From Promethearchaeota archaeon (GTDB lineage Archaea; Asgardarchaeota; Lokiarchaeia; Sigyniarchaeales; SOKP01): a stretch of DNA of 39,743 nt. Shown in pieces: positions 6,954-39,652 of the stretch (position 1 is its first letter; the number at the start of each line of letters is the position of its first letter). Below the pieces are notes generated by a model. It was not told the DNA's origin. It saw only the letters and a list, made by a program, of their open reading frames with translations, and made no database searches. The stretch is from assembly GCA_048938005.1 (NCBI GenBank), contig JBHLMQ010000029.1:1-39743 (forward strand), given 5' to 3'. The translations under genes and the position numbers were made by a program.

Positions 6954-7961
6954 ATGAAACTTTTTCTAATTGAACAAGGAAATTTAAATGAAATCAATAA
7001 ACTCATCTTTTCTAGTGGAGACGTTTATCTCGTGGATGATGAGAAAACTATCTATGTTTGGATTGGTAATAAATGCTCTGTTGATGAGAAGACTGCTGGT
7101 GCCGCTCAAGCAAGAACACTCGACCAACAACGAGGTGGTGCTGCAAAAATCATTACAGTAGATCAAGGACAAGAGCCAAAAGAATTTATGAAAGCAATTA
7201 ATCCAATGGGAGCAATGAAAATTGTAGAAAAAAATTACGCTAAAACATTGCTTAAAGATGTAACTACAGGTGATTGGGCCGGGTTTACAGAGTGGAAGAA
7301 TGTATTATACCGTGTTTCCTCGGAAGAATTCGAGGACATCAATGCTATGAAAATGATTCAAGTTCCGTTTAAAAAAGAATCATTAGATTCGGAAGATTGT
7401 TTCGTTGCTGATTTAGGCAATAAAGTATACATATGGCAAGGAAATGCTAGTACTGTGAAAGAGCGTGTCAAAGCGGGTCAATGGGCTCGTGCTATAGATG
7501 CTGATAGGGCGGGATTACAACAAGAAACAATCTTTGAAGAAGGGGATGATATGGAATTTATGGCAGCTTTAGAGAGAGGTGAAGATTATAAAGAGTCTGA
7601 CGCCGTCCAATTAAAAGCTGAATCTGTGTTAGAAGGCGAAGATGCAGATGATAGAATAGCGAAAGCAATCCAACCTGAATTTAAATCTGAAGTTAAAGAG
7701 GTGTCTCCAGAAGAAGTAAAAGCTGATATTTCTGAAGTTAAAGCTTCAGGAGCGGCTCCTGGAATACCGGGTAAAACTGATGCCTCCATTCTAACTATTG
7801 AAAAAATAGAAGGTCGAAGAAAATGTCCAGAGTGTGGAACTGATGACCCTCATATGATTCATGAGAGTGTGGATAAGTCTAATATAATTTTAGACTATCC
7901 AAGAGTATATGGCAAAAAATACCTCTGTGGGTCGTGTGGGTGTAATTGGCGTGAAAAATAA
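6954..7961 (+). CDS. two-domain gelsolin/villin-family actin regulator with acidic linker and C-terminal Zn ribbon
   Basis: two gelsolin repeats (SGDVYLVD..IYVWIG..S.DEK..QGQEPKEF and LDSEDCFVAD..VYIWQG..S..ER..EGDD.EF); CPECG...CGSCG tail. Confidence 0.9.
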   Translation: MKLFLIEQGNLNEINKLIFSSGDVYLVDDEKTIYVWIGNKCSVDEKTAGAAQARTLDQQRGGAAKIITVDQGQEPKEFMKAINPMGAMKIVEKNYAKTLLKDVTTGDWAGFTEWKNVLYRVSSEEFEDINAMKMIQVPFKKESLDSEDCFVADLGNKVYIWQGNASTVKERVKAGQWARAIDADRAGLQQETIFEEGDDMEFMAALERGEDYKESDAVQLKAESVLEGEDADDRIAKAIQPEFKSEVKEVSPEEVKADISEVKASGAAPGIPGKTDASILTIEKIEGRRKCPECGTDDPHMIHESVDKSNIILDYPRVYGKKYLCGSCGCNWREK

Positions 7962-10034: not shown

Positions 10035-10652
10035 TCATTCTTCTATGCGGTCTTTCCAAGAATCTTTTCTTGGTTCAGCTGTATCATCACGATATTTAGT
10101 CGATTGATATTCTGTGCTGGAAGAAATCTGAAAAGGAGATCCAGTACTTTGTTGAGGAGGTGAGACTATCTCCATAATTTCTTTTAATTCACTTTGCGTC
10201 TTTGTTTCTTTCCCTGTAATTCTTTTATAAATCTTTTTTATCCCGTATATTAATAAAGAAAAACCTATTGAAAAAATAAGGTAAATAGCAACCCAACCAC
10301 TGCCAAAAATTAAAAGTGGAAAAGGTAACAACCCACTGCTATAATCTGCATAAATAAATCCGAGAACTATAAAAATACCAATGAAAATCAGACATCTTAC
10401 ACATAGAGGCACCATTTGCTTCTTCATTATCTGTTTCATGAACCGGACTGATTCTTGTTGTAGCTCTGCCATTAACTGAAAATCACCTAAAAGTTGAGCA
10501 TTTTTCATACGTTCTCGAAGATTAGATGCCTTTTTCCTCATATCTCTTAAATTTCCTTCTCTTAATCCTAAAAAATAATTAAGAGATATCCCTAGCATTA
10601 TCATACCAATGGTTATGATCATAATTAGAATAATTATAACTATGTTTGACAT
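10035..10652 (-). CDS. EMC3/TMCO1 (DUF106, Oxa1 superfamily) membrane protein
   Basis: TM1, M/Q/K-rich coiled coil, TM2, LPFP loop, then GW..Y TM3. Confidence 0.8.
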   Translation of the reverse strand: MSNIVIIILIMIITIGMIMLGISLNYFLGLREGNLRDMRKKASNLRERMKNAQLLGDFQLMAELQQESVRFMKQIMKKQMVPLCVRCLIFIGIFIVLGFIYADYSSGLLPFPLLIFGSGWVAIYLIFSIGFSLLIYGIKKIYKRITGKETKTQSELKEIMEIVSPPQQSTGSPFQISSSTEYQSTKYRDDTAEPRKDSWKDRIEE

Positions 10653-17476: not shown

Positions 17477-17636
17477 GGATTTCCACAGTATAATATTTTT
17501 TCATTATTAACAACATAAGATTTTATGTTTATTAAAATTACGATGTTATTGAAATAATATTAATTTCCGAAAGCATAAAATATAACTAAAGTTATTGTTC
17601 AAAATATTATTAAGCTTTAATGGTAAAATTTTAAAT

Positions 17637-19382
17637 ATGGAGCCTTATTATAATAAAATCTCTGAAGTATTATTAAAAAAGTTTAAAATAATTGTCGGAA
17701 AAGATTATTTTTTTGATGATTATGAAATAAGATGGACCTACGCTTTTGGAGGAGGAATATTTAACAAAGAGTGGGTTCCAGATTTAATTTTGATTACTCA
17801 AAATGCTAAACAAATTTCTGAAGTTTTAAAATTAGCAAATAAGAATAGAATTCCAGTAACTCCTCGGGGGAGCGGAACAAGTTTATCTTCCGGTTCATTA
17901 ACCCCTTATGGGGGAATAATTTTAGATTTAAGCCAAATGAAGGATATTCTTACAATAGATATTGATAATAATTTTGTAGAAGTTGAGCCTGGAGTAATTT
18001 GTGATGAATTAAATGAAATATTAAAACCATATGGTTATTTTTTTCCTCCAGATCCAGGTTCAAGTTCTGTAGCTACAATAGGGGGAATGGTTGCTAGTAA
18101 TGCTGGTGGCATCCAAGCATTCAAATATGGGGTTACAAAAAATTATGTCATATATTTAGAAGTTGTATTACCAGATGGAAAAATTTTGAATCTTGGTTCT
18201 AAAGTTTTAAAATCAGTATCATCTTATAATATCAAGGATCTATTTATCGGTTCTGAAGGCACATTAGGAGTAATTACAAAAATTGGTTTACGAATTAGAC
18301 CTTTGCCAAAAACTAGAAAATTAGGTATATTTATTTTTGAAAATGTTGATGATTTACAAGATGCTGTGTTAGAGTTAAGACGAAGTGGGATTGTCCCAAA
18401 TTTATTAGAATTTATGGATAAGCTTATTTTGAAAGCCGTTACTGAATATCTAGGTGGTGAGTTCTTCGATTTTCCAAATGGTTATGTACTATTAGCTGAA
18501 GTGGATGGAAACTCTATAAGAGAGGTTGATGAATCATTTACTATAATGTTTGATATAATAATCCAGAAAAATCCAATATTTCATAAGGTAGCGATGAGTG
18601 AAGAGGAACGAGAAAGATTAATCCTTGCAAGGAAAGCTAATCTTCCCGCTCTTTCGAGAATTAGACCAAATACTTGTGTTGAGGATTGTACGATCCAGAT
18701 TTCAAAATTCGCTGATATTATTAAAAAAATTGAGGAAATTCCTGAAAAAGTTAATGCCAAAAACTTATTAGTAGCAATTATTTGTCATATGGAGGGAAAT
18801 TTGCATCCTACATTCTTATTTAATGAAAATGATGAACAAGATGTTAAAGATTTCGAAAAGGCAATAGATTATTTATATAGACAAATAATAATACCCGCAG
18901 GGGGAACGTTAACTGGTGAACATGGAATTGGAAAAATAAAGACACCATTTCTTGAATTAGAACATGATTCTGAGGTAGTTGATCTGATGGTAAAAATTAA
19001 GAAGTTCTTTGATCCGAACATGATCTTGAATCCTGGAATTGGGAAAGGTGATCCTCGATCTTTAAATACCAAAAATCATAGCCGTACCTTAATAAAACAA
19101 TCTGATAAGATTTTAGAATTAAAGTGTATGAGATGTGGATTTTGTATCTCATGTCCATCAAGAATTAATTATATTTTAGAGGCATATAGTCCCAGAGGAC
19201 GTTTAAGTCTCTTAAATGGCTTAGTACATGGTGAATTAGAATTAAATGATTTAATAATTGAAGTATTGCAGACTTGTACTTTATGTGGACTCTGTCAAAC
19301 AATGTGTCCTGCGGGTGTTAATACAACTGAAATTTTTGAAAAAGCTAGAGAGATAATTCATAGAAAACCTAAAAAACAATGA
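17637..19382 (+). CDS. FAD-linked oxidase (GlcD/D-lactate dehydrogenase family) fused to a 4Fe-4S dicluster
   Basis: PRGSGTSL, FPPDPGS, GSEGTLG, GNLH, GEHGIG; CMRCGFCISCP and CTLCGLCQTMCP; ATG 17637 preferred over TTG 17595. Confidence 0.9.
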   Translation: MEPYYNKISEVLLKKFKIIVGKDYFFDDYEIRWTYAFGGGIFNKEWVPDLILITQNAKQISEVLKLANKNRIPVTPRGSGTSLSSGSLTPYGGIILDLSQMKDILTIDIDNNFVEVEPGVICDELNEILKPYGYFFPPDPGSSSVATIGGMVASNAGGIQAFKYGVTKNYVIYLEVVLPDGKILNLGSKVLKSVSSYNIKDLFIGSEGTLGVITKIGLRIRPLPKTRKLGIFIFENVDDLQDAVLELRRSGIVPNLLEFMDKLILKAVTEYLGGEFFDFPNGYVLLAEVDGNSIREVDESFTIMFDIIIQKNPIFHKVAMSEEERERLILARKANLPALSRIRPNTCVEDCTIQISKFADIIKKIEEIPEKVNAKNLLVAIICHMEGNLHPTFLFNENDEQDVKDFEKAIDYLYRQIIIPAGGTLTGEHGIGKIKTPFLELEHDSEVVDLMVKIKKFFDPNMILNPGIGKGDPRSLNTKNHSRTLIKQSDKILELKCMRCGFCISCPSRINYILEAYSPRGRLSLLNGLVHGELELNDLIIEVLQTCTLCGLCQTMCPAGVNTTEIFEKAREIIHRKPKKQ

Positions 19383-20674
19383 AAATAGATTATGGTAAGA
19401 AAGGTCTAGAGATAAAACTTGATCCAAAGTGGAATGTTACTATACTCCATCCTAAAGTACAAAAAACGTTTGAGAATCCGATTGGAGAAATCAAAAGGGT
19501 GATTAAAAATCCAGTTGGATCTTTACCTCTTAAAGAAATTGTTAAAAGTAAAAAGATTTTGAAAACTGTCTGTATTATCGCAAACGATGCAACTCGACCA
19601 GTTCCTTCAAGTTTAATTCTTGAGGTTTTAATAGATGAATTAGGAAAGTATGGAATTAAAGATAATCAAATTAAGATCTTGATTGCTACAGGATTGCATC
19701 GTGCTTCTCGCGATGAAGAATTAGAAAGAATCCTTGGAAAGAATTTAAAAATGCGATTAAAAACAATTGATCATATTGCTACTGATAGGAAATCTTTATT
19801 CAACTTAGGAATAACAAAAGATAAAAATCCGATTTTTATAAACAAACATTATTGTGAAGCGGATTTAAAGATTTTAACTGGCTATGTTGAACCTCATTTT
19901 TTTTTTGGATTTTCTGGTGGTCGCAAATCTATAATTCCTGGAATTGCAGGTATAGAAACCATCCAAGCCAATCACTCTGCTGAAAATATTGCCTCTCCAT
20001 ATTCCAGATTTGGAATTTATAAAGAAAATCTATTGCATAAAAATGCAATGGAAATTACTAAAAGGGTGGGTGTAGATTTTATTATTAATGTTTGTATTAA
20101 TGAACTCCATGAAATTGTTGAAATAGCTGCTGGAGATATCGAGAAAGTTCATGAAAAATTGGTGGACTACCAATTAAAACATATTTTCAGGGAAATCAAT
20201 AAGCCTTGTGATATAATAATATGTGGAAATGGAGGATATCCCTTAGATCTTAATTTATATCAAGCTGTTAAGAGTATGGCTATAGGAGAAATGGCTGTAA
20301 AAAAGGGAGGAACAATAATTGCTGTAAATGAATGTGCTGATGGCATCGGAATAGGTCAAGATGAATTTAAAAAATTAATATTTTCTGGAATGGCGCCAGA
20401 GGAAATCCACAAGAAAATATTAAATAAGGAAATTGTCGTACCTGATCAATGGGAAATACAAATTTTAGCTAGAATTCTTATGAAAGCTGATATCTTCGTG
20501 ATATCTAGATTAAAAAAGAATGAATTAGGGAATATCGGTTTAAAATATGCTAAAACCGTTGAGGACGCTATTACAAACTGTTTAAATAAATATGGAGATG
20601 ATGCTTCAATACTGATTTTACCTAACGGCCCTCAAATACTCCCCTTATTGAAAGATCCTAATGAAAATTTATAA
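19379..20674 (+). CDS. larA: nickel-pincer lactate racemase family protein
   Basis: DATRP, ATGLHR, PHFFFGFSGGRKS, GYPLDLNLYQAVK and DQW motifs; ATGA overlap with the upstream gene. Confidence 0.92.
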   Translation: MKIDYGKKGLEIKLDPKWNVTILHPKVQKTFENPIGEIKRVIKNPVGSLPLKEIVKSKKILKTVCIIANDATRPVPSSLILEVLIDELGKYGIKDNQIKILIATGLHRASRDEELERILGKNLKMRLKTIDHIATDRKSLFNLGITKDKNPIFINKHYCEADLKILTGYVEPHFFFGFSGGRKSIIPGIAGIETIQANHSAENIASPYSRFGIYKENLLHKNAMEITKRVGVDFIINVCINELHEIVEIAAGDIEKVHEKLVDYQLKHIFREINKPCDIIICGNGGYPLDLNLYQAVKSMAIGEMAVKKGGTIIAVNECADGIGIGQDEFKKLIFSGMAPEEIHKKILNKEIVVPDQWEIQILARILMKADIFVISRLKKNELGNIGLKYAKTVEDAITNCLNKYGDDASILILPNGPQILPLLKDPNENL

Positions 20675-31179: not shown

Positions 31180-31950
31180 ACGCAGGATATAGTTTTATAC
31201 GAAAAAGAAGGGGATATTGGCAAGATTACTTTAAATAAACCAGAACAAAGAAATACATTAGATCTAAAAACTTTAAAAAAGTTAATAGAAGCTTTTAAGA
31301 TAAGTGCTAATAATGGGGATGTATGTGTTATTTATAGCGCTAACGGTAAACATTTTACTGTTGGTGCAGATTTGAAATATGGATTTGAGCTCCTCACGGA
31401 TAATAGTCGAATGGCTGAAGCTGTTGAATTCCTAGAAGCCTTTCAAAATTTAACAAGAGCAATGATATCCCATTCGGGAATTATTATTGCTGGGCTTCAT
31501 GGATGGGTTATTGGAGGGGGATTTGAACAGTTATTATATTGTGACTTAAGAATTGCTGCTAATGATACTCGGATAATGCTTCCAGAATTAGGAGTAGGAC
31601 TCTTCTTCTCAAATGCTTCAACTAAACTTTTGCCCAGAATTATCGGTGAAGGACGGGCAAAACAATTAATGTATTTAGGATCAGAAATTAGTGCCAAAGA
31701 AGCCCTCAATATAGGATTAGTTAATCAAGTCTGTAAACCTGAAGGATTAAGAAGGATTATTAGACGTACAGCAAACACTATCGTGCAAAAAGATCATATA
31801 ACTCTTAAATGGGCAAAAAAAATGATAAATGAGAATCAAGATGCTTCTATTGAATCAGTGTTAGCTAAAGAATTACGGATTATGATTTTAATGGGACAAT
31901 CTGAAGAACTTAAGAAAAGACTTGAAAAGTTCGTGAAAGATAAGCATTAG
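31180..31950 (+). CDS. enoyl-CoA hydratase/isomerase (5' end extended beyond the ORF track)
   Basis: in-frame upstream ITLNKPEQRN and FTVGADL; GGGFE, CDLRIA, PE and GLVN motifs. Confidence 0.9.
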   Translation, partial: TQDIVLYEKEGDIGKITLNKPEQRNTLDLKTLKKLIEAFKISANNGDVCVIYSANGKHFTVGADLKYGFELLTDNSRMAEAVEFLEAFQNLTRAMISHSGIIIAGLHGWVIGGGFEQLLYCDLRIAANDTRIMLPELGVGLFFSNASTKLLPRIIGEGRAKQLMYLGSEISAKEALNIGLVNQVCKPEGLRRIIRRTANTIVQKDHITLKWAKKMINENQDASIESVLAKELRIMILMGQSEELKKRLEKFVKDKH

Positions 31951-32036: not shown

Positions 32037-33335
32037 ATGGAGCGAACAGGTCCACTCTTATTCAAAGAGTATCCCCTTCTGAAGGAAAAAGTACCATGGA
32101 TACCTTTGCTTATAAATGCCCCTACATCTGTAGAAAGATTACATGAATTAGAAAAGCATCTTAATTTGGATAAGGGTCAGATATTTATTAAAAGAGATGA
32201 TATAAATCATCAAATTTATGGAGGAAATAAGCTAAGAAAGTTTGAATTTATCTTTGGAAACGCTATTTTAAAGAAAAAGAAAAAAGCTATTGTAACTTAT
32301 GGAGGTATTGGTACACATCATGGCTTAGCTTCCGCAATACTTTGTAATAAATTACATCCGCCTCTAAAATGTGATTTATTTCTCTATAATCAGCCTCTTA
32401 CTTGGCATGTCCAACGTTCATTATTATTATATGATTATTTTAAAGCAAAATTGCATCTTGGGAAAACGGATATAAGTACATTTATTAAAGCCTTATTCTT
32501 TTGGATTTTCCATCGTAAATACGAATTCATACTTCCTGGAGGAAGCCTTTTGTTTGGTAGAGGAACTCCTTTAGGAGTGGTGGGTTTTATAGAAGCAACT
32601 TTTGAACTAAATGAACAAATTAAAAAGGGGCAAATTCCCGAACCTGATTTAATCTTTTTAGCAAATGGTACTACAGGAACAGCAGCAGGATTAGTAGCAG
32701 GATGTAAATTATTAGGATTAAAATCTAAAGTCTATGCTGTAGCAGTGTACAAAGAATTCATTGCCAATACTTCTAATTTAGCCAGAAATGCAAATAAGGC
32801 TCTTAAATATTTGCATAAAAGAGATAAGAATTTTCCAAAAATAAAAATTTCACGAGATGATTTTGAATTAGTAAAAGGATACTTAGGTTCTGGATATGGT
32901 GTTAAAACAATAAAAGGTCAAAATGCAGTAGATACTATATTTGATTTAGAAGGGAAATCAAAAGGATTTAACTTAGAAACTACATATACGGGAAAAGCAA
33001 TGGCTGCTATGTTTGATTTCCTTAAGAAGGAAGAAAATAAAAATAAAACTATACTATTTTGGAACACTTATAATTCAAATGATCTGGATAAATATATAAG
33101 AAATACTAATTTTGATTATAAAAAACTTCCAAAAAAGTTCTATAAGTTTTTTGAAAAGACATATTTTCAATGTTGGCAAATTACTGATTGTCCCAAGGAG
33201 ATAAGAGAAAACTGTCCGGCTTACTTAAACCATGAATACAGATTTTGGAAAATTACAGATTGCAAGCTTGATCAAAAAAAACAAAGGAAAGCTTTGGGAA
33301 TATTAAAAAATGTAATTAAATTAGAGAATGCCTAA
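32037..33335 (+). CDS. PLP enzyme of the D-cysteine desulfhydrase/ACC deaminase family with Cys-rich C-terminal extension
   Basis: IKRDD, GGNKLRK, GTTGT.AG, GYG, LETTYTGKA and FWNT motifs. Confidence 0.9.
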   Translation: MERTGPLLFKEYPLLKEKVPWIPLLINAPTSVERLHELEKHLNLDKGQIFIKRDDINHQIYGGNKLRKFEFIFGNAILKKKKKAIVTYGGIGTHHGLASAILCNKLHPPLKCDLFLYNQPLTWHVQRSLLLYDYFKAKLHLGKTDISTFIKALFFWIFHRKYEFILPGGSLLFGRGTPLGVVGFIEATFELNEQIKKGQIPEPDLIFLANGTTGTAAGLVAGCKLLGLKSKVYAVAVYKEFIANTSNLARNANKALKYLHKRDKNFPKIKISRDDFELVKGYLGSGYGVKTIKGQNAVDTIFDLEGKSKGFNLETTYTGKAMAAMFDFLKKEENKNKTILFWNTYNSNDLDKYIRNTNFDYKKLPKKFYKFFEKTYFQCWQITDCPKEIRENCPAYLNHEYRFWKITDCKLDQKKQRKALGILKNVIKLENA

Positions 33336-33520: not shown

Positions 33521-33658
33521 TTAGTAAAAATCTTCTTGAAAGTCTTCAAAATCTTCCCAATCTTCATCCCAGTCCTCATTATCATCATATTCTACGTCTT
33601 CATCCCAATCCTCTTCTTCCACGAATTTTTTCTTTTCAGAATTTTGTTTTGTATTCAT
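33521..33658 (-). CDS. acidic-aromatic micro-protein (45 aa, not in the ORF track)
   Basis: GAGGT RBS; MNTKQNSEKKKFVEEEDWDEDVEYDDNEDWDEDWEDFEDFQEDFY. Confidence 0.8.
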   Translation of the reverse strand: MNTKQNSEKKKFVEEEDWDEDVEYDDNEDWDEDWEDFEDFQEDFY

Positions 33659-34489
33659 GTTTTTAACCTCTTTTTCTATTATTTATAATAGATTAGAATT
33701 ATGATAAATTTTCAATTACGTCATAAAACTTATTAAATATTTAAATGTTTTCAATTTTAATAATAATAACTATAATAAAGAAAATTAATTGCGAGTATCT
33801 AGGATTCAGAGAGCATCATAGGTACTCTTACTATTTATAACAGTTAAATCTTATTATATGTAAAATAATATTGTTTACTTTAATTAAAAACTCAGTTTAA
33901 ACCTTGTATAAGTTCTAAAAATTTAATATTTTGTTAGAATCTATAATAAAACTGAGCACTTTTTTATTATATTCTATAAATTGTAAATTTAAAATGATCT
34001 CTTATACCGAACAATTATTTTTGGAAACAAATATTAAATTATAATCAGAAATCACTTAATATTCCAAATTGCTTATATAAAGAGGAAAAAATAATAAATT
34101 AAGCTCACATTTATCTAATTAGATTAAGATTAGACCTTATTTATAAAATTAAAGTAATATATTATAATTTCCAAGAGATTTAATCTTATTAAAATTTGTC
34201 TTACATGGTAAAAATATAAAAGAAAAGTTTTTAAATCAATTAATTTATATATAATTTCAAATATAAAATTTTAATAGAATGAAGTAAAGTTAAATCTAAA
34301 TAACATTTAAAGGGTAATCGATTAATTAATAAATGATACATAATATTACAATCGAAATATTAAGAAGAATTATTCTCTATGCGAAAATTTTTTGTGATAA
34401 AGAGAAGTTCTTAAATACTTCATTCAGGTTAAAAAGCCTTCATTTTCTTCAGAATTTATCAAATTCAAGATTTTTAAGATAAAAAAGCA

Positions 34490-36424
34490 ATGACAACTCA
34501 AACAGATAGTATAAATAATAAAAAAAGAACTTTTGAGAGTAAAGGAAAAAGTATATCCATTTGCTTAGGTCCTGTTCTTAACCCAGAAGAATATGTTAAA
34601 AAAGATTGGTGGAAACGGATATTTAACGCTTATTATTTAAAAACAGATGGAGATGTAGTAGAAGATCAAAAAATTACTGAATATGAAGTAAATTATTTTT
34701 CAAACGTTATGCAATTTCATCAAGAACATCAGATTCTCGATCTCTGTTGTGGTCAAGGAAGACATTCCATTGAGTTAGCTAATAAAGGCTTTAAAAATGT
34801 ATTTGGATTAGATCGGTCAAGATATTTAATTCAGAAAGCTAAAACTAACGCGAAAAAATGTGGAGTTTTATGCAAATTTCATGAAGGAGATGCGAGAAAA
34901 CTACCATATAATCCAGATAAATTTGATTTTGTTTTGATTTTAGGTAATAGTTTTGGATATTTTGAATCAATGAATGATGATTTTCTGGTATTAAAAGAAG
35001 CTTTCCGTGTTTTAAAGCCTTGGGGAAAAATATTAATAGATATAACTGATGGAGAATTTCTTAGAGAAAATTTTCAATCACGTTCATGGGAGTGGATTGA
35101 TAAGAATCTTTTCGTTTGTCGAGAAAGAACTTTATCTTTGGATAAACAAAAATTGATTTCAAGGGAAGTAATAACACATGTTAATAAAGGAGTATTAGTG
35201 GATCAGTTTTATGCAGAAAGATTATACTCAAAAATAGTTATTTCAGAGTTGTTAGAAAAAGTAGGTTTTAGTGAAGTAATTTTCCATGGCTCGATTACTC
35301 CTGAGTCTCAACGTAACCAAGATTTAGGAATGATGGAAAAAAGAATTATTGTCAGCGCTATTGTTAAAAAAGAATGGACACCGATTAAAAAGAAAGAAAA
35401 AAGAGTTGAAAAAAATACAATTGTTATTTTCGGAGACCCTAATAAACCCGATGTACTTAAACCCTTCCAAAAGTTCGATGATGATGATTTCTTTACAATA
35501 AATCAATTAAAAGCTGCACTAAAGGAGCTTAATGAATATAATTTTTCATATTTAGATAATCACAACACTCTTATTCAGGATTTACAAAATTTAAATGGCA
35601 AAATTGATTTTGTTTTTAATTTGTGCGATGAAGGTTATTACAACGAAGCTAGAAAAGAATTACATATACCCGCTTTATTAGATATTCTCAAAATTCCATA
35701 TACAGGATCTGGACCTCAGTGTCTAGCCTTTTGTTATGATAAATCATTAGTAAGAGGTATTGCAAAAGAATTAGAGATTCCTGTCCCTGAAGCTATATAT
35801 ATTAAACCTGAAGATAAAATTATTGATTTACCTTTATATTTTCCTGCTATTGTAAAACCTAATTTCGGAGATTCTAGTTTTGGGATTACTCAAAGAAGTG
35901 TGGTTAAAAATGGAGAGGAACTGCTGAGTGCAATTTCAGAAATACGTGAAAAATTTGGTTATGATAAACCAATTTTAGTTGAACAATTTCTTCCTGGTAA
36001 GGATCTCAGTGTTGGAATTATTGGAAATCTCCCAGATAATTTTCTAATCCTTCCAATAATCGAAGAAGATTATTCAAATTTACCTCCAGAATTACCAAAA
36101 ATATGTGGTTATGAGGCAAAGTGGATACCAGATTCTCCCTATTGGAATATTAAATCTATTCCAGCAAATCTCTCACAAGATGTCATTGAAATTATTGAAA
36201 ATTCTTCACTCAAATTATTTGAACGATTGGAATGTCAAGATTATGCTCGATTTGATTGGCGATTGGATGCTAATGGAAATCCTAAGCTCTTAGAAATAAA
36301 TCCTAATCCCGGTTGGTGTTGGGATGGTCATTTAGCAAAAATGTGTAATATTGCAAATATCCCATATAAGGAAATGTTAAATAAAATTTTAGAAGCCGCA
36401 GTAAAAAGAATTGGATTAACATAA
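34490..36424 (+). CDS. class I SAM methyltransferase fused to a D-Ala-D-Ala-ligase-like ATP-grasp domain
   Basis: LDLCCGQGRH, GDAR; IPYTGSG, DK, VKPNFGDSSFGI, VEQFLPG, RFDWR, LEINPNPG. Confidence 0.9.
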   Translation: MTTQTDSINNKKRTFESKGKSISICLGPVLNPEEYVKKDWWKRIFNAYYLKTDGDVVEDQKITEYEVNYFSNVMQFHQEHQILDLCCGQGRHSIELANKGFKNVFGLDRSRYLIQKAKTNAKKCGVLCKFHEGDARKLPYNPDKFDFVLILGNSFGYFESMNDDFLVLKEAFRVLKPWGKILIDITDGEFLRENFQSRSWEWIDKNLFVCRERTLSLDKQKLISREVITHVNKGVLVDQFYAERLYSKIVISELLEKVGFSEVIFHGSITPESQRNQDLGMMEKRIIVSAIVKKEWTPIKKKEKRVEKNTIVIFGDPNKPDVLKPFQKFDDDDFFTINQLKAALKELNEYNFSYLDNHNTLIQDLQNLNGKIDFVFNLCDEGYYNEARKELHIPALLDILKIPYTGSGPQCLAFCYDKSLVRGIAKELEIPVPEAIYIKPEDKIIDLPLYFPAIVKPNFGDSSFGITQRSVVKNGEELLSAISEIREKFGYDKPILVEQFLPGKDLSVGIIGNLPDNFLILPIIEEDYSNLPPELPKICGYEAKWIPDSPYWNIKSIPANLSQDVIEIIENSSLKLFERLECQDYARFDWRLDANGNPKLLEINPNPGWCWDGHLAKMCNIANIPYKEMLNKILEAAVKRIGLT

Positions 36425-36456
36425 TTTCAATTATAATATTAAATCCCTATAATAAA

Positions 36457-37668
36457 ATGACAGCTACAGAAATTGAAAATAATAAAAAAGATCCAGACAA
36501 TATTGAGAAAGTTTCTTCATATGTACGCCATCTTGAGAAAAAAGTAAAGGAATATGAAATTGACGTAAATTTATTAAGAAATAGTATAACAAAGGTGGAA
36601 TTTGAAGTAAACAGTTTACGATCAGAAATTGAGCGATTAAGTGATCTTCCCTTATTATCAGGATATATAATTGATATTCTAGATGATATGAATGACCGTG
36701 CTATTGTAGATATGCCACCTAACTCTAGTTTTGTTGTTAGAATTAGTAATAGACTGCAAAAAGAGAAGATTGTACCAGGATTACATGTAGCTTTAAATCA
36801 ACGAAATTATGCGGTAATGGAAATATTACCCTCCAAATTTACCCCATTTGTGAGAGGTATGGAAATAATTGATAGACCTATTGATATTTCATATGATGAT
36901 ATTGGAGGTTTAGAAAATCAAATCCAAGAAGTTAAAGAGATTATAGAATTACCATTGAAAAAACCAGAATTATTTAAAAAAATTGGGATCGAACCACCTA
37001 AAGGGGTTCTTTTTTATGGTCTACCTGGAACGGGAAAAACTTTATTAGCTAAAGCAGTTGCTCATGAATCAAATGCAACCTTTATTAAAGTAGTTGCTAC
37101 AGAATTGGTGCAAAAATTTATTGGTGAGGGTTCTCAATATGTAAGAGAAATATTTAGTTTAGCAAGACAGAAAGCACCTACTATTTTGTTTATAGATGAA
37201 ATAGATGCAATTGGTGCCATCAGAATGCAAGATGATACTTCAGGTGATAGAGAAGTAAATAGAACATTAATGCAATTATTAAGTGAATTAGATGGTTTTG
37301 ATCAAAGAGGAAATATTAAATTTATTGCTGCAACAAATAGAGAAGACATATTAGATCCAGCTCTATTAAGACCAGGTCGATTTGATCGCATAGTAGAATT
37401 CCCTATTCCTAATGAAAAAGCTAGAGAAGCAATTTTTAGAGTTCATATGAGAAATCTAAATTTTGAAGAAGACATTGAAATAAAAATTTTAACTATCCTT
37501 ACTAAAGGTGCAACGGGTTCAGATATTAAAGGAATTTGCACAGAAGCAGGTATGTATGCTATTAGAAAAAATTCTGAAATTATTTCCCATGAAGATTTTA
37601 TTAAGGCTATAGATAAAATCATGTCTAAAAAAAAAGAGGATTTTCCTACATCCGATATTTTCTTGTGA
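36457..37668 (+). CDS. pan: proteasome-activating nucleotidase (AAA+)
   Basis: N-terminal coiled coil and OB region, GLPGTGKT, KFIGEG, FIDEID, LDPALLRPGRFDR. Confidence 0.93.
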   Translation: MTATEIENNKKDPDNIEKVSSYVRHLEKKVKEYEIDVNLLRNSITKVEFEVNSLRSEIERLSDLPLLSGYIIDILDDMNDRAIVDMPPNSSFVVRISNRLQKEKIVPGLHVALNQRNYAVMEILPSKFTPFVRGMEIIDRPIDISYDDIGGLENQIQEVKEIIELPLKKPELFKKIGIEPPKGVLFYGLPGTGKTLLAKAVAHESNATFIKVVATELVQKFIGEGSQYVREIFSLARQKAPTILFIDEIDAIGAIRMQDDTSGDREVNRTLMQLLSELDGFDQRGNIKFIAATNREDILDPALLRPGRFDRIVEFPIPNEKAREAIFRVHMRNLNFEEDIEIKILTILTKGATGSDIKGICTEAGMYAIRKNSEIISHEDFIKAIDKIMSKKKEDFPTSDIFL

Positions 37669-37780
37669 GCTGAGCCATAAATAAAGACTATTAAGAGAAA
37701 AAAATTTAAAACACTATTATTAAAATATTAGAGAAAGCTACAGAAAAATATTTCTTGATAGTTTAAATAACTAAAGTAAA

Positions 37781-38770
37781 CTAAATAATTTTTAACCGTT
37801 GCAATAAACCTGTAATTAAAATAGGCAAAGCGATTGTAGCTTCACACCAAACACTTACATGTTTTGACTCCAAAGAATATTTGCCCCAAGATTTTGCCTC
37901 TGAAAAAGTACTTCCTGAAAGCCCCCCATCATACTCCATAGCTGTGTGAACACGAACTGAGTAATTGTAACCCATTTTCTCAATCTTATCAAATTGGTCT
38001 AACATAGGAAAGATTTGTTGAGCCCAATTACGCGGAACACCACCACCTATGATAATAGTTCCATATTCTTTATAATTTTTAACAATTTCTCCAAATTTTT
38101 TCACATCCCCTAAGATATCAAACTGAAAATCATATCCCTCATATAGATCGTACTTAATAAGTTTTAAAGCTAGTTCTGAGTCTGAAAAGGCTGGTATAAA
38201 TATGGGGATGTTATTTTTAGCTGCCATTGAAAGGATATTATTTCCTGATAGTTTAGTACCAATCTTTTTTAGAAACTCTGAGGGTTTAATTTGAATGTTT
38301 TTCATGTCAAATGAAGATTGAATTATTTCTAATAATTTTAAGTCTGCTCTATCATAGTTTTCTTCAGGAAGGAAGATATCATAAATCCTATTAATCCGAT
38401 GTTTGAATAATTCATCATCATCTACATTGGGACTTCCCAGATAATGTCCTATATTACTTGCAGCATCTACTAAATCGTGTATTATATTAGCACCAGTACT
38501 AATTAATACATCAATTAATTTATATTCCATTAATACCGATATTAGTTCTCCCATCCCCGCAGGAACCAACGCCCCACTTAGAGTTAACACAGTGAGGCAA
38601 TTTTTATCAGAAACCATTTTTTCTAAGATATCAAGAGCTAAACCAAGATTTCTTCCTTGGAAACCACAATCTTTTAAAGCGGTAATAAGATCATTTACAT
38701 TTGTTACTATTTTTGGATTAAAAGGTTTAACTTTTTTTATCAAATAATCTTCTTTTTGATGGGTTTTCAT
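37781..38770 (-). CDS. dys: deoxyhypusine synthase family protein
   Basis: STGANIIHD, PAFSDSE, GGGVPRN, DGGLSG and EAKSWGK (active-site lysine). Confidence 0.92.
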   Translation of the reverse strand: MKTHQKEDYLIKKVKPFNPKIVTNVNDLITALKDCGFQGRNLGLALDILEKMVSDKNCLTVLTLSGALVPAGMGELISVLMEYKLIDVLISTGANIIHDLVDAASNIGHYLGSPNVDDDELFKHRINRIYDIFLPEENYDRADLKLLEIIQSSFDMKNIQIKPSEFLKKIGTKLSGNNILSMAAKNNIPIFIPAFSDSELALKLIKYDLYEGYDFQFDILGDVKKFGEIVKNYKEYGTIIIGGGVPRNWAQQIFPMLDQFDKIEKMGYNYSVRVHTAMEYDGGLSGSTFSEAKSWGKYSLESKHVSVWCEATIALPILITGLLQRLKII

Positions 38771-39103
38771 AAATAAAATTAAATGTGTTAATGATTTTAA
38801 AATGATCTATTTGTATTTTTTTAAAATATCTTGAAATTATATCACTTTATTTGAAACCCCGCTCTGATTTGTATTTAATTAGGACAAAATTTAATGAAAT
38901 TTTTCACCTCATGATTTTAATCCTTTACAATATCCAATTTTATTATGATGCAAAATTTTTCTATTCTTATTATGAATTAGGTATAATATATTCAATTTAA
39001 ATGCCATAAATTTTAATATATTATTTGAGCTTAAAATAAGTTTAAATATTACTTTTAATATTAAAATCTTAATTGTAAATTATAGAGAAAGAATGATAAA
39101 GTA

Positions 39104-39652
39104 ATGTCTTTAGTCCCAAAAAAGGTATTCTTTGTCAAAGGTAAAGGATATCATAAATCCAAGCTAGCTGCTTTCGAAGAAGCTCTCAGAGATGCTGGAA
39201 TTGAAAAATATAATATCGTGAATGTTTCTTCTATTTTACCTCCATATTGTATTGAAATAAATAAAGAAGATGGACTAAGACAACTCCGTTCAGGTCAAAT
39301 CGTTTTTGCTGTGTTAGCTAGAAGTGAGTCAAATGAATATAATCGATTGATCTGTGCTTCTATTGGCGTTGCGAAACCTGCTGATAAGGGGCAATATGGA
39401 TATTTAAGTGAACATCATTCTTTTGGTGTTAAACCGGATAAAGTAGGGGATTTTGCTGAAGATTTAGCAGCAGAAATGTTAGCTACAACTCTAGGTATTC
39501 CTTTTGATCCCAATTTAAACTATGATGAAAAAAGAGAAGTATTTAAAATGGGAGGAAAAATAGTTGAAACTAAAAATATTACGGCTCATGCTACAGTAAG
39601 AGAAGAAAACGAATGGGCTGCTGTAGTTGTTGCGGCGATTTTTATCATTTAA
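39104..39652 (+). CDS. pdaD: pyruvoyl-dependent arginine decarboxylase
   Basis: FEEALRDAGI, NIVNVSSILP (Ser-Ser self-cleavage site) and GYLSEH motifs. Confidence 0.93.
   Translation: MSLVPKKVFFVKGKGYHKSKLAAFEEALRDAGIEKYNIVNVSSILPPYCIEINKEDGLRQLRSGQIVFAVLARSESNEYNRLICASIGVAKPADKGQYGYLSEHHSFGVKPDKVGDFAEDLAAEMLATTLGIPFDPNLNYDEKREVFKMGGKIVETKNITAHATVREENEWAAVVVAAIFII

What the first reader, a model, noticed from the sequence alone, without database searches (positions are those of the whole stretch)
33521..39652. Possible peptide-modification system: acidic micro-protein, methyltransferase-ATP-grasp fusion and polyamine enzymes
Seen: an RBS-preceded 45-aa peptide with a basic N-terminus and a repetitive acidic core is divergent from a SAM methyltransferase/ATP-grasp fusion. 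PAN follows 32 nt after the fusion, then a divergent DHS/arginine decarboxylase pair. Established: ATP-grasp enzymes activate carboxylates for ligation to amines, PdaD makes agmatine, and DHS-family enzymes transfer aminobutyl groups. Archaea have no need for a peptidoglycan D-Ala-D-Ala ligase. Inference: the fusion may attach agmatine or a polyamine to, and methylate, Asp/Glu residues of the peptide (RiPP-like or a tag), or build a methylated amine conjugate. PAN could link this to degradation. The 830-nt gap to the peptide weakens the link.
Basis: partly seen in the sequence, partly recalled or inferred. Interest (0 to 1): 0.75.

Follow-up and report, generated by a model that had tools for sequence, protein, structure and literature searches.

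The report
Acidic micro-protein with orphan amide ligase
In one family of Asgard archaea, a tiny, extremely acidic tryptophan-repeat protein is repeatedly encoded next to an unstudied two-part enzyme (methyl-adding plus ATP-driven bond-forming) and next to a spare copy of a polyamine enzyme, so the three probably work together on polyamine-like molecules, though what they make is unknown.

Summary
The MTase/Ddl-like fusion is an orphan enzyme. The scan met it before on other DNA (5 earlier notes). It is 55-69% identical from Asgard archaea to many bacterial phyla and usually stands alone. A homology search for the 45-aa ORF found 1 of 40 related loci. A composition scan found it directly upstream of the fusion in 19 of 40 (19 of 27 in the window's own family). 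In the window's genome only 2 of 22,955 small ORFs are that acidic. The DHS here is an accessory paralogue paired with PdaD; a universal second DHS sits behind an agmatinase elsewhere. Acidic micro-genes lie within 3 kb of the DHS paralogue in 9 further genomes, three of them without the fusion. Independent echoes: a LysW-like acidic-tail protein upstream of the fusion in two Chloroflexi, an agmatinase-SpeY-fusion operon in one spirochaete, and an exported-looking acidic neighbour in another. PAN looks like a bystander. Best reading (0.38): a polyamine-centred module in which the ligase joins an agmatine- or polyamine-type amine to a carboxylate of the acidic peptide and methylates it. Near-equal rival (0.30): a free small-molecule product, with the peptide only binding polycations. 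Nothing biochemical is shown.

The parts
33521..33658 (-). 45-aa hyper-acidic Trp-repeat micro-protein gene: basic N-terminus with KKK, repeated E-D-W-D-E-type units, C-terminal F-Y
   Evidence: ORF; GAGG 9-12 nt upstream; 1 of only 2 such ORFs among 22,955 small ORFs in the genome; same design upstream of the fusion in 19 of 40 loci; alignment A2 has two nearly invariant Trp; no Pfam or NCBIfam hit
33659..34489 (.). 831-nt, 18% G+C spacer between the divergent micro-ORF and the fusion
   Evidence: Length 824-841 nt in 12 loci of two genera (807 in a 13th), while sequence identity to the window falls to about 51%; no Rfam family, tRNA or meaningful repeat. Function unknown
34490..36424 (+). 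644-aa bifunctional enzyme: N-terminal class I SAM methyltransferase (folded aa 31-292, about 34580-35365), linker, C-terminal complete Ddl-fold ATP-grasp ligase (aa 308-644, about 35411-36421)
   Evidence: Pfam and NCBIfam; PDB sequence matches to Ddl/VanA and to 9ri2_A methyltransferase, E 4e-20; AlphaFold2 model, mean pLDDT 84.8; Foldseek TM 0.80-0.83 to whole Ddl chains; single copy in the genome
36457..37668 (+). Proteasome-activating nucleotidase (PAN), one of two paralogues; probably a bystander
   Evidence: NF003069 524 bits > 500; second PAN on C57 at 61% identity; adjacent to the fusion in 10 of 40 loci, own family only
37781..38770 (-). Accessory deoxyhypusine-synthase-family paralogue ('D1')
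   Evidence: PF01916 3e-86 but below every NCBIfam equivalog cut-off; found in 51 of 71 family genomes, whereas a 36-41% identical DHS is in 71 of 71; the universal copy in this genome follows an agmatinase on C24
39104..39652 (+). Pyruvoyl-dependent arginine decarboxylase PdaD (makes agmatine), divergent from the DHS paralogue; the only copy in the genome
   Evidence: PF01862 1.4e-56; TIGR00286 above cut-off; single match in the own genome; the PdaD/D1 pair recurs

Best explanation
The region holds a functionally linked, polyamine-centred gene set, not a PAN-linked tag system. SHOWN: (1) the 45-aa ORF belongs to a real family of hyper-acidic Trp-repeat micro-proteins; (2) in this Promethearchaeota-type family such a gene is a persistent neighbour of the orphan methyltransferase/Ddl-fold ligase and, separately, of an accessory DHS paralogue paired with PdaD; (3) both enzyme halves keep their cofactor and catalytic motifs. 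INFERRED mechanism: PdaD makes agmatine, and the DHS paralogue elaborates it by aminobutyl or guanidinobutyl transfer, as SpeY does. The ATP-grasp half activates a carboxylate as an acyl phosphate and joins it to such an amine. The amine-type methyltransferase half N-methylates the conjugate. The carboxylate is supplied by the acidic micro-protein, which would act like the LysW amino-group carrier or the acidic tails used by RimK and TTLL enzymes: a side-chain or C-terminal carboxyl within or next to its E-D-W-type units. PAN is a neighbour only.
For: Adjacency: an acidic micro-ORF lies directly upstream of the fusion in 19 of 40 loci (19 of 27 in the family). It is divergent at about 830 nt in two genera and co-directional at 87-490 nt in three others, and the other flanking genes differ. 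In the 71-genome family sample a pattern hit lies within 3 kb of the fusion in 20 of 42 fusion-bearing genomes, plus 5 copies that the pattern missed but one search showed. About 0.3 would be expected in 585 kb from the own-genome rate. The micro-gene follows the fusion and not the MobA-like neighbour: 8 MobA-like loci in 5 fusion-less congeners have no acidic ORF. Independent lineage: in two Chloroflexi the fusion is preceded, 190-230 nt upstream and co-directional, by a protein with the LysW zinc-ribbon domain (PF21344, 42.6 and 48.3 bits, cut-off 27). It aligns to LysW 3wwl_A (E 4.6e-10), and its tail runs 13 acidic/Tyr residues past the point where LysW ends in E-D-W plus 2 residues. The fusion is otherwise rare in that phylum (1 of 251). 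Polyamine link: acidic micro-genes lie within 3 kb of the DHS paralogue in 9 genomes of 3 genera. The fusion lies within 10 kb of it in 6 genomes of 3 genera. One spirochaete has agmatinase-like, then SpeY (NF002699 574 > 500), then the fusion. SpeY chemistry is described in PMC13625781 (abstract and passages). Enzyme competence: SAM motifs and the Ddl ATP/Mg/acyl-phosphate positions align with 3r23 and are invariant or nearly so in 31 homologues; the whole Ddl fold is present. The closest methyltransferase relatives act on amines (9ri2_A; glycine/sarcosine N-MTs). NmbA is N-directed per preprint 10.1101/2025.07.06.663066 (abstract and passages).
Against: The enzyme mostly lives without such a peptide: there was no acidic neighbour in 13 of 13 loci of other Asgard families or in 77 of 80 non-Asgard loci. 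Three tested genomes of fusion-bearing families f5 and f21 gave no pattern hit at all. At 55-69% identity across domains one would expect one common substrate. Acidic micro-genes also sit beside PdaD/DHS in genomes without the fusion (G210, G305, G319). W/acidic repeats occur in 173 of 301 Asgard genomes, including families without the fused enzyme. The ATP-grasp half is itself acidic (pI 4.9, net -13), which suits a cationic substrate better than docking a highly acidic peptide. The window peptide has no LysW zinc ribbon and ends in F-Y, not Glu. The ligase is Ddl-type, not LysX/RimK-type. Other recurrent neighbours point to small molecules: AstE/AspA deacylases (4 loci), GGACT (2), CitMHS transporters (9). 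One acidic neighbour (L199) looks exported. Within genus g1 the co-occurrence (16 of 16 against 0 of 7) is what a single block gain or loss would give. Close orthologues show no third-position bias in substitutions.
Confidence: 0.38

Rival explanations
1. The fusion is a self-contained two-step enzyme that makes a free small molecule: an N-methylated amide between an acidic amino acid or similar carboxylate and an agmatine- or polyamine-type amine, or an N-methyl dipeptide-like solute. The micro-protein is not modified. It is a polycation-binding, buffering or regulatory peptide (acidic plus aromatic residues, as in polyamine-binding sites; recalled), kept nearby because both serve polyamine or cation balance.
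For: The gene stands alone with variable neighbours in most lineages and is very highly conserved across domains. Small-molecule-type neighbours recur: AstE/AspA deacylase in 4 loci, GGACT in 2, amidohydrolase in 2, CitMHS in 9, LysE in 1, CorA or MgtC in 3, compatible-solute genes. The ATP-grasp half is acidic. Micro-genes sit with PdaD/DHS in fusion-less genomes. L199's acidic neighbour looks exported.
Against: A LysW-domain protein, whose known role is covalent carrier, travels with the fusion in Chloroflexi. Adjacency persists through rearrangements in 6 genera. No specific small-molecule pathway partner is conserved.
Confidence: 0.3
2. There is no functional link. The adjacency is inherited gene order, or hitch-hiking of a small gene with a mobile block, within one archaeal family. 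Acidic Trp-repeat proteins are generic Asgard disordered proteins with other roles.
For: All 19 adjacent cases are in one family. The genus-level co-occurrence fits one block indel. The pattern is common in families without the fusion. Other paralogues sit beside unrelated genes: HEAT-repeat protein, M20 peptidase, DUF255, OYE.
Against: Flanking genes, orientation and spacing change while the pair stays together. About 1 pattern locus per genome, yet 20 + 9 of 74 lie within 3 kb of two particular genes. Acidic partners arose independently in Chloroflexi and a spirochaete.
Confidence: 0.12
3. The micro-ORF is a cis-acting sensor. Translation of long D/E runs is fragile and depends on Mg2+, polyamines or modified aIF5A (recalled from work on acidic nascent chains and eIF5A-dependent motifs; not checked here), so its translation would report polycation status and tune neighbouring genes.
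For: In many loci it lies 90-490 nt upstream of a gene and co-directional with it: MobA-like in g1/g4 and on C11, the fusion in g2, g6 and g7. It is linked to PdaD/DHS genes.
Against: In the window it is convergent with the PALP gene and has no downstream gene. In g4 it lies downstream of the CofE-like gene. There is no consistent leader position.
Confidence: 0.05
4. It is a RiPP or graspetide-like natural product, or a PAN-directed degradation tag.
For: A small peptide beside an ATP-grasp and a methyltransferase; PAN 32 nt downstream.
Against: The acidic core has no Ser or Thr, and Lys occurs only at the N-terminus. The ligase is Ddl-type. No protease, exporter or immunity gene is conserved. 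PAN adjacency is 10 of 40 and confined to the family.
Confidence: 0.05

Closest known systems
D-alanine--D-alanine ligase / VanA family (Ddl, EC 6.3.2.4)
   Same: The C-terminal half has the complete Ddl fold (TM 0.80-0.83 to whole chains). It keeps the aligned ATP, Mg and acyl-phosphate positions, so it should form an amide through an acyl phosphate.
   Different: Scores lie far below all Ddl family cut-offs (131.9 against 243). The Ddl N-domain signature PF01820 is not detected. The omega-loop Tyr position is Trp. It is fused to a methyltransferase, and the host has no peptidoglycan. Not a Ddl.
LysW / LysX (ArgX) amino-group carrier protein system
   Same: An ATP-grasp ligase next to a very small, very acidic protein with E-D-W motifs. 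In Chloroflexi the neighbour really carries the LysW domain. The idea of an amine tethered to a carrier carboxyl comes from this system.
   Different: The window peptide has no zinc ribbon; its motif is repeated internally, and it ends in F-Y. The ligase is Ddl-type, not RimK/LysX-type. No LysZ/Y/J/K-like genes are nearby. Most fusion genes have no such partner.
Amine-directed class I methyltransferases (NmbA, glycine/sarcosine N-methyltransferases)
   Same: These are the best solved relatives of the N-terminal half (9ri2_A E 4.2e-20; 5h02/5gwx about 3e-10). NmbA methylates the cysteine amine of bacillithiol (preprint abstract).
   Different: The GSMT equivalog score is 56.8 against a cut-off of 350. 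The preprint states that archaea lack bshA-C (passage).
SpeY / DHS family with arginine decarboxylase (agmatine-dependent homospermidine route)
   Same: A DHS-family gene paired with an arginine decarboxylase, as in bacterial SpeY clusters (PMC13625781). A true SpeY sits directly upstream of the fusion in one spirochaete.
   Different: The window's DHS paralogue scores 208 against the SpeY cut-off of 500 and 257-278 against DHS cut-offs of 304-434, so its substrate is open. No ureohydrolase lies beside it; the agmatinase sits with the other DHS on C24, an arrangement tied to aIF5A modification in PMC5178350.
RimK-S6, TTL/TTLL-tubulin, glutathionylspermidine synthetase, Ngg (recalled, not tested)
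   Same: These are ATP-grasp-type enzymes that act on acidic protein tails, or that join a carboxylate to a polyamine, or that are fused to an N-capping domain to make a dipeptide solute.
   Different: They belong to other ATP-grasp subfamilies, and no sequence relationship was tested here. They serve only as working analogies.

Membership tests
Ddl (D-Ala-D-Ala ligase) | Ddl-type ATP-grasp fold | tested here: met
   PF07478 E 1.2e-25; Foldseek TM to target 0.80-0.83 over about 340 columns with 3r5x, 8evx, 1iow and others
Ddl (D-Ala-D-Ala ligase) | Score above curated family cut-offs | tested here: not met
   Best NF002378 131.9 bits against 243; TIGR01205 126.1 against 245.65
Ddl (D-Ala-D-Ala ligase) | N-terminal domain signature that holds the first D-Ala (PF01820) | tested here: not met
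   No PF01820 hit at E <= 0.01, while a true Ddl in L143 gave 131 bits in the same library. The NCBIfam alignments start at model position 23-31 or later
Ddl (D-Ala-D-Ala ligase) | ATP, Mg and acyl-phosphate residues | tested here: met
   The DK, VKP...SS, AK[Y->W], R.D and E.N motifs align with 3r23_A. K418, K456, K544, R587, D589, E602 and N604 are invariant or nearly so in 31 homologues. The role of each residue is recalled
LysW/LysX amino-group carrier system | Carrier carries the LysW zinc-ribbon domain (PF21344) | tested here: not met
   The window peptide has no Cys and no Pfam hit. The feature is met only by the Chloroflexi neighbours L111 and L113
LysW/LysX amino-group carrier system | Acidic C-terminal tail ending in E-D-W plus 2 residues | tested here: inconclusive
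   LysW chains end '...EDW' plus 2 residues. The window peptide has three internal [DE]-D-W-[DE]-[DE] units but ends in F-Y
LysW/LysX amino-group carrier system | Ligase of the RimK/LysX ATP-grasp subfamily and LysZ/Y/J/K-type partners nearby | tested here: not met
   No PF08443 among the fusion's hits. No such families among the window's other ORFs
Graspetide-type RiPP | Core peptide with Ser, Thr or Lys partners for Asp/Glu side chains, and a dedicated graspetide ligase | tested here: not met
   The acidic core has no Ser or Thr, and Lys occurs only at the N-terminus. The ligase is Ddl-type
Deoxyhypusine synthase acting on aIF5A | DHS family domain and equivalog-level score; the universal copy in the lineage | tested here: inconclusive
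   PF01916 3e-86, but NF002006 278 < 434 and TIGR00321 256.7 < 304. A different DHS is the universal one (71 of 71 against 51 of 71)
[quoted passage not shown] | NF002699 equivalog cut-off | tested here: not met
   208.3 against 500; positive control L120 scores 574
PdaD pyruvoyl arginine decarboxylase | Curated family cut-off | tested here: met
   TIGR00286 129.3 > 106.95; NF009064 195.7 is just under 207
PAN proteasome-activating nucleotidase | Curated family cut-off and domain order | tested here: met
   NF003069 524 > 500; OB, AAA and lid domains
NmbA (bacillithiol N-methyltransferase) | Host makes bacillithiol (bshA-C present) | not tested
   Not searched here. The preprint states that no archaea hold BshA-C homologues (passage), so membership is unlikely

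The most novel reading that the evidence does not exclude
Asgard archaea use hyper-acidic Trp-repeat micro-proteins, in effect tandem copies of the LysW tail motif, as covalent carriers or targets. A Ddl-fold ligase amidates their carboxylates with agmatine- or polyamine-type amines, the fused methyltransferase N-methylates them, and an accessory DHS paralogue extends the tethered amine or modifies the peptide's KKK motif. This would be either a carrier-protein-dependent polyamine pathway or a new 'polyaminylation' of acidic tails, an archaeal counterpart of ATP-grasp modification of acidic tubulin tails in eukaryotes.
Probability: 0.15. Interest if true: 0.85.

Novelty: new variant of a known kind. 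Interest (0 to 1): 0.62.

Why it matters
The methyltransferase/Ddl-fold fusion is one of the better-conserved enzymes without a known function: 24,750 representative proteins match at E <= 0.001, and identity between archaea and bacteria is 55-69%. Until now there was no handle on its substrate. The recurrent acidic partner, a LysW-like partner in another phylum, and the links to PdaD, a spare DHS and SpeY narrow the search to amide conjugates of agmatine- or polyamine-type amines and give a short list of assays. The finding also shows that this archaeal family has two DHS paralogues, one with an agmatinase and one with an arginine decarboxylase. That bears directly on the question raised in PMC13625781 of whether archaea hold both agmatine- and spermidine-dependent DHS enzymes. 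Finally, it brings to light a widespread, undescribed family of hyper-acidic Trp-repeat micro-proteins in Asgard archaea.

Tried and rejected
1. tblastn with the 45-aa peptide at E 1e-5 found 1 of 40 loci. phmmer-type search of the own genome missed the C11 paralogue even at E <= 10. Homology search is unfit for this low-complexity peptide, and I nearly concluded 'no co-occurrence' from it.

2. Complex prediction, fusion (31-row alignment) plus micro-protein (19 rows): score 0.00, no verdict. This is no evidence either way.

3. The look-up of sequencing runs: no RNA holder listed; 18 DNA rows from 8 studies. Read laying was not used, so expression could not be addressed.

Source names of distant homologues came from the ESM Atlas and from record titles instead.

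5. Rfam and tRNA scans of the window found nothing. The repeat search in the spacer found only AT-rich matches and the codon repeats of the micro-ORF.

6. The idea that the micro-gene belongs to the MobA-like gene was rejected.

7. Charge comparison of fusions with and without an acidic partner showed no difference (median pI 5.75 against 5.6-6.0).

8. The codon-position test gave no third-position excess. Coding status therefore rests on frame and periodicity conservation, the SD-like site and recurrence.

9. Conservation of the LysW-like pairing in Chloroflexi and of the SpeY operon in Spirochaetota could not be tested. The fusion was found in only 1 of 251 and 13 of 201 sampled genomes respectively, and the SpeY operon only in the index genome.

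10. Literature: searches found no paper on this fusion architecture or on acidic Asgard micro-proteins. One search found nothing that links LysW-type carriers to such an enzyme.

Full report
OBSERVATION. Every element is at the stated coordinates. These are the 45-aa ORF 33521-33658(-), the 644-aa fusion 34490-36424(+), PAN 36457-37668(+) 32 nt downstream, and the divergent pair DHS 37781-38770(-) and PdaD 39104-39652(+). The fusion carries class I SAM methyltransferase families at aa 70-200 and the Ddl C-domain PF07478 at 448-635. PAN and PdaD reach curated cut-offs. The micro-ORF has GAGG 9-12 nt before its ATG. The window has no Rfam family and no tRNA. The closest homologues of the fusion bear Promethearchaeota and other Asgard MAG names. 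The rest of the window fits that origin, with a gelsolin-repeat protein, TFIIB, a proteasome subunit and ProRS.

THE ENZYME. The AlphaFold2 model (mean pLDDT 84.8) shows two folded halves, aa 31-292 and 308-644, joined by a low-confidence linker. The C-terminal half superposes on whole Ddl chains (TM to target 0.80-0.83). It keeps the aligned ATP, Mg and acyl-phosphate motifs. Its scores are nevertheless far below every Ddl cut-off. The Ddl N-domain signature is not detected, and the omega-loop Tyr position is Trp. The best solved relatives of the N-terminal half are amine-directed methyltransferases. NmbA is N-directed according to the preprint's abstract and passages, but I could not find the code 9RI2 in its text.

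The gene is single-copy in the window's genome. In the phylum sample, full-length copies occur in the own family f1 (45 of 68) and in four other families: f5 4 of 4, f6 2 of 2, f10 4 of 5, f21 6 of 6. By matching contig lengths these are Odin- and Jord-archaeal records. Seven of 22 same-genus genomes lack it. An exhaustive search gave 24,750 representatives at E <= 0.001. The search for related loci confirmed 580 stretches, and the best 80 are 55-85% identical. They come from Planctomycetota, Atribacterota, Chloroflexi, Desulfobacterota, Spirochaetales, Nitrososphaeria, Halobacteria, methanogens and others. The Atlas also lists chytrid and ascomycete clusters with this architecture. Five earlier notes of this scan describe the same orphan family on other DNA.

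THE TURN. By homology, PAN was adjacent in 10 of 40 related loci, DHS and PdaD lay within 7 kb in 4 of 40, and the peptide appeared in 1 of 40. Flanking genes differed by lineage with no shared theme. That looked like a refutation. In the own genome only 2 of 22,955 small ORFs reach 40% D+E: the window ORF and a paralogue on C11. In the 40 loci (585.5 kb), 19 hold an ORF of 33-87 aa with the same design, always just upstream of the fusion. The other 21 hold none in the fetched flanks. All 19 are in family f1 (19 of 27 loci, 6 genera). The arrangement is divergent with an 824-841-nt spacer in two genera, and co-directional at 87-490 nt in three others.

THE MICRO-PROTEIN FAMILY. The consensus is a short N-terminus with G-K-K-K, then two to five [DE]n-W-[DE]n units, mostly ending in Tyr or Phe; two Trp are nearly invariant. 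Frame and GAN periodicity are kept in 18 of 18 copies. Substitutions between close orthologues are not biased to third positions, so composition, not sequence, is conserved. A DNA pattern for W[DE][DE]-x(0-10)-[DE]W[DE][DE] hit 50 of 71 family genomes, against 5 hits in total for the reversed control. It hit 173 of 301 genomes of the phylum, including families without the fused enzyme (f9 64 of 76, f24 18 of 21). The family is therefore general in Asgard archaea and has several subtypes and paralogues.

WHICH GENE DOES IT FOLLOW? In most g1 and g4 loci the micro-gene lies between a MobA-like gene and the fusion. On C11 of the window's genome it sits beside the MobA-like gene with no fusion there. 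However, 8 MobA-like loci in 5 fusion-less congeners have no acidic ORF. In genus g1, 15 of 16 fusion-bearing genomes hit the pattern, and the 16th has the ORF by direct view. Of the 7 fusion-less genomes, 6 have no hit and one has a single atypical hit. Because the genes are adjacent, one block gain or loss explains this, so it adds little beyond adjacency.

THE DHS IS A SPARE COPY. Every one of 71 family genomes has a DHS only 36-41% identical to the window's. The window type ('D1') is in 51 of 71. In the window's genome the universal copy follows ArgRS and an agmatinase on C24. That is the arrangement linked to aIF5A modification in PMC5178350 (abstract and passages). PdaD is single-copy. 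Cross-tabulating coordinates gives the following. Pattern hits lie within 3 kb of the fusion in 20 genomes and within 3 kb of D1 in 9 others. Of those 9, 6 are in g4, where the micro-gene sits between D1 and a CofE-like ligase gene. The other 3 are in g6 and g72, in genomes without the fusion. The fusion lies within 10 kb of D1 in 6 genomes of 3 genera. With about one pattern locus per genome, 29 of 74 loci beside two particular genes is far beyond chance, although related genomes are not independent.

OUTSIDE ASGARD. Of the 80 loci from the search for related loci, 12 are Asgard and 68 are not. No neighbour is conserved across them. A CitMHS transporter recurs in 9, including Halobacteria and Methanosarcinales. 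I gave Pfam 109 of the 148 immediate neighbours, leaving out the Asgard loci and most ORFs under about 90 aa, plus 4 extra proteins. The hits included AstE/AspA deacylases (3, plus 1 by clustering), GGACT (2), amidohydrolase (2), RimK (1), CorA or MgtC (3) and compatible-solute genes.

Two Chloroflexi loci share a regulator, small-protein, fusion block. The small protein has the LysW zinc ribbon above cut-off and aligns to LysW 3wwl_A (E 4.6e-10). It then extends the E-D-W-type tail by 13 or more acidic and aromatic residues. The fusion was found in 1 of 251 sampled Chloroflexi, and that genome is the index genome itself. One spirochaete has agmatinase-like, then SpeY (574 > 500), then the fusion. 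Among 13 fusion-bearing genomes out of 201 sampled Spirochaetota this operon occurs only there. Another locus (L199) has a 103-aa hyper-acidic, exported-looking protein starting 15 nt after the fusion. In all, 3 of 80 non-Asgard loci (68 + 12) have an acidic mini-protein neighbour, from 2 independent events.

READING. Shown: the genes, the family of micro-proteins, the adjacency statistics, the two DHS paralogues, and the intact catalytic motifs. Inferred: that the ligase makes an amide between a carboxylate and an agmatine- or polyamine-type amine and the methyltransferase N-methylates it. I rank first (0.38) the version in which the acidic peptide supplies the carboxylate, LysW-like. The reasons are that a true LysW-domain protein travels with the enzyme elsewhere and that the pair survives rearrangement. 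Nearly level (0.30) is a free small-molecule product, with the peptide as a non-covalent polycation binder. This rival is favoured by four things: the enzyme's wide peptide-less distribution, small-molecule-type neighbours, its acidic ATP-grasp half (pI 4.9), and micro-genes in fusion-less genomes. Inherited synteny alone gets 0.12; a D/E-run translational sensor gets 0.05; a RiPP or PAN tag gets 0.05.

PAN. It is a bona fide PAN and one of two paralogues. It is adjacent to the fusion in 10 of 40 loci and 3 of 80, all in the family. I see no evidence for a functional tie.

LIMITS. All genomes are MAG-grade samples. Flanks were 4-7 kb. The pattern misses some true copies (at least 6 seen) and hits some large proteins. 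Kin are not independent. No expression data could be had. Supplements of the cited papers were not consulted.

Noticed in passing
window 33659-34489: The AT-rich (18% G+C) spacer between the micro-ORF and the fusion keeps its length (824-841 nt in 12 loci of two genera) while its sequence decays to about 51% identity. This suggests a constraint on length or on something not seen by sequence alignment.
   Followed up: partly
G000 contig C24:20731-22598 (locus L184:3069-4936): The genome's second, family-universal DHS overlaps the end of an agmatinase gene and follows ArgRS. This family thus has two DHS paralogues, one with an agmatinase and one with PdaD, which bears on the open question in PMC13625781.
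   Followed up: partly
L091, L095, L092, L186 (genus g4 genomes G071, G113, G083, G174): An accessory CofE-like F420-0:gamma-glutamyl-ligase-family gene is followed, 300-370 nt downstream and co-directional, by an acidic micro-protein gene next to the DHS paralogue. This is a second amide-ligase family beside these peptides.
   Followed up: partly
G000 contig C11:89752-89877: A 41-aa paralogue of the micro-protein lies between an aminotransferase gene and a MobA-like NTP-transferase gene. This is the locus that holds micro-ORF, fusion and PAN in most congeners, so in this genome the block seems to have been copied or moved to the window.
   Followed up: yes
L050 (G040:C49, about 4.8-8.9 kb of the locus): Two copies of the fusion gene lie in tandem, with an acidic micro-ORF upstream of the first.
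   Followed up: no
window 6954-7961 and 10035-10652: A gelsolin-repeat protein and an EMC3/TMCO1-like membrane protein, both eukaryote-like signature proteins typical of Asgard archaea.
   Followed up: no
window 31372-31950: The enoyl-CoA hydratase ORF matches only profile positions 68-241 of 251 and starts at TTG. It may be N-terminally truncated, or its start may be mis-set.
   Followed up: no
window 32037-33335: A PLP enzyme of the ACC-deaminase / D-cysteine-desulfhydrase family (below all equivalog cut-offs) carries a roughly 80-aa C-terminal extension with several Cys.
   Followed up: no
window 17595-20674: An FAD-linked oxidase with an Fe-S domain overlaps a LarA lactate-racemase gene by 4 nt. 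This is probably a lactate-utilisation pair.
   Followed up: no
L199:3453-3764 (spirochaete G577): A 103-aa protein with a signal- or lipoprotein-like N-terminus and a hyper-acidic tail ending in G-E-D-Y starts 15 nt after the fusion gene.
   Followed up: partly
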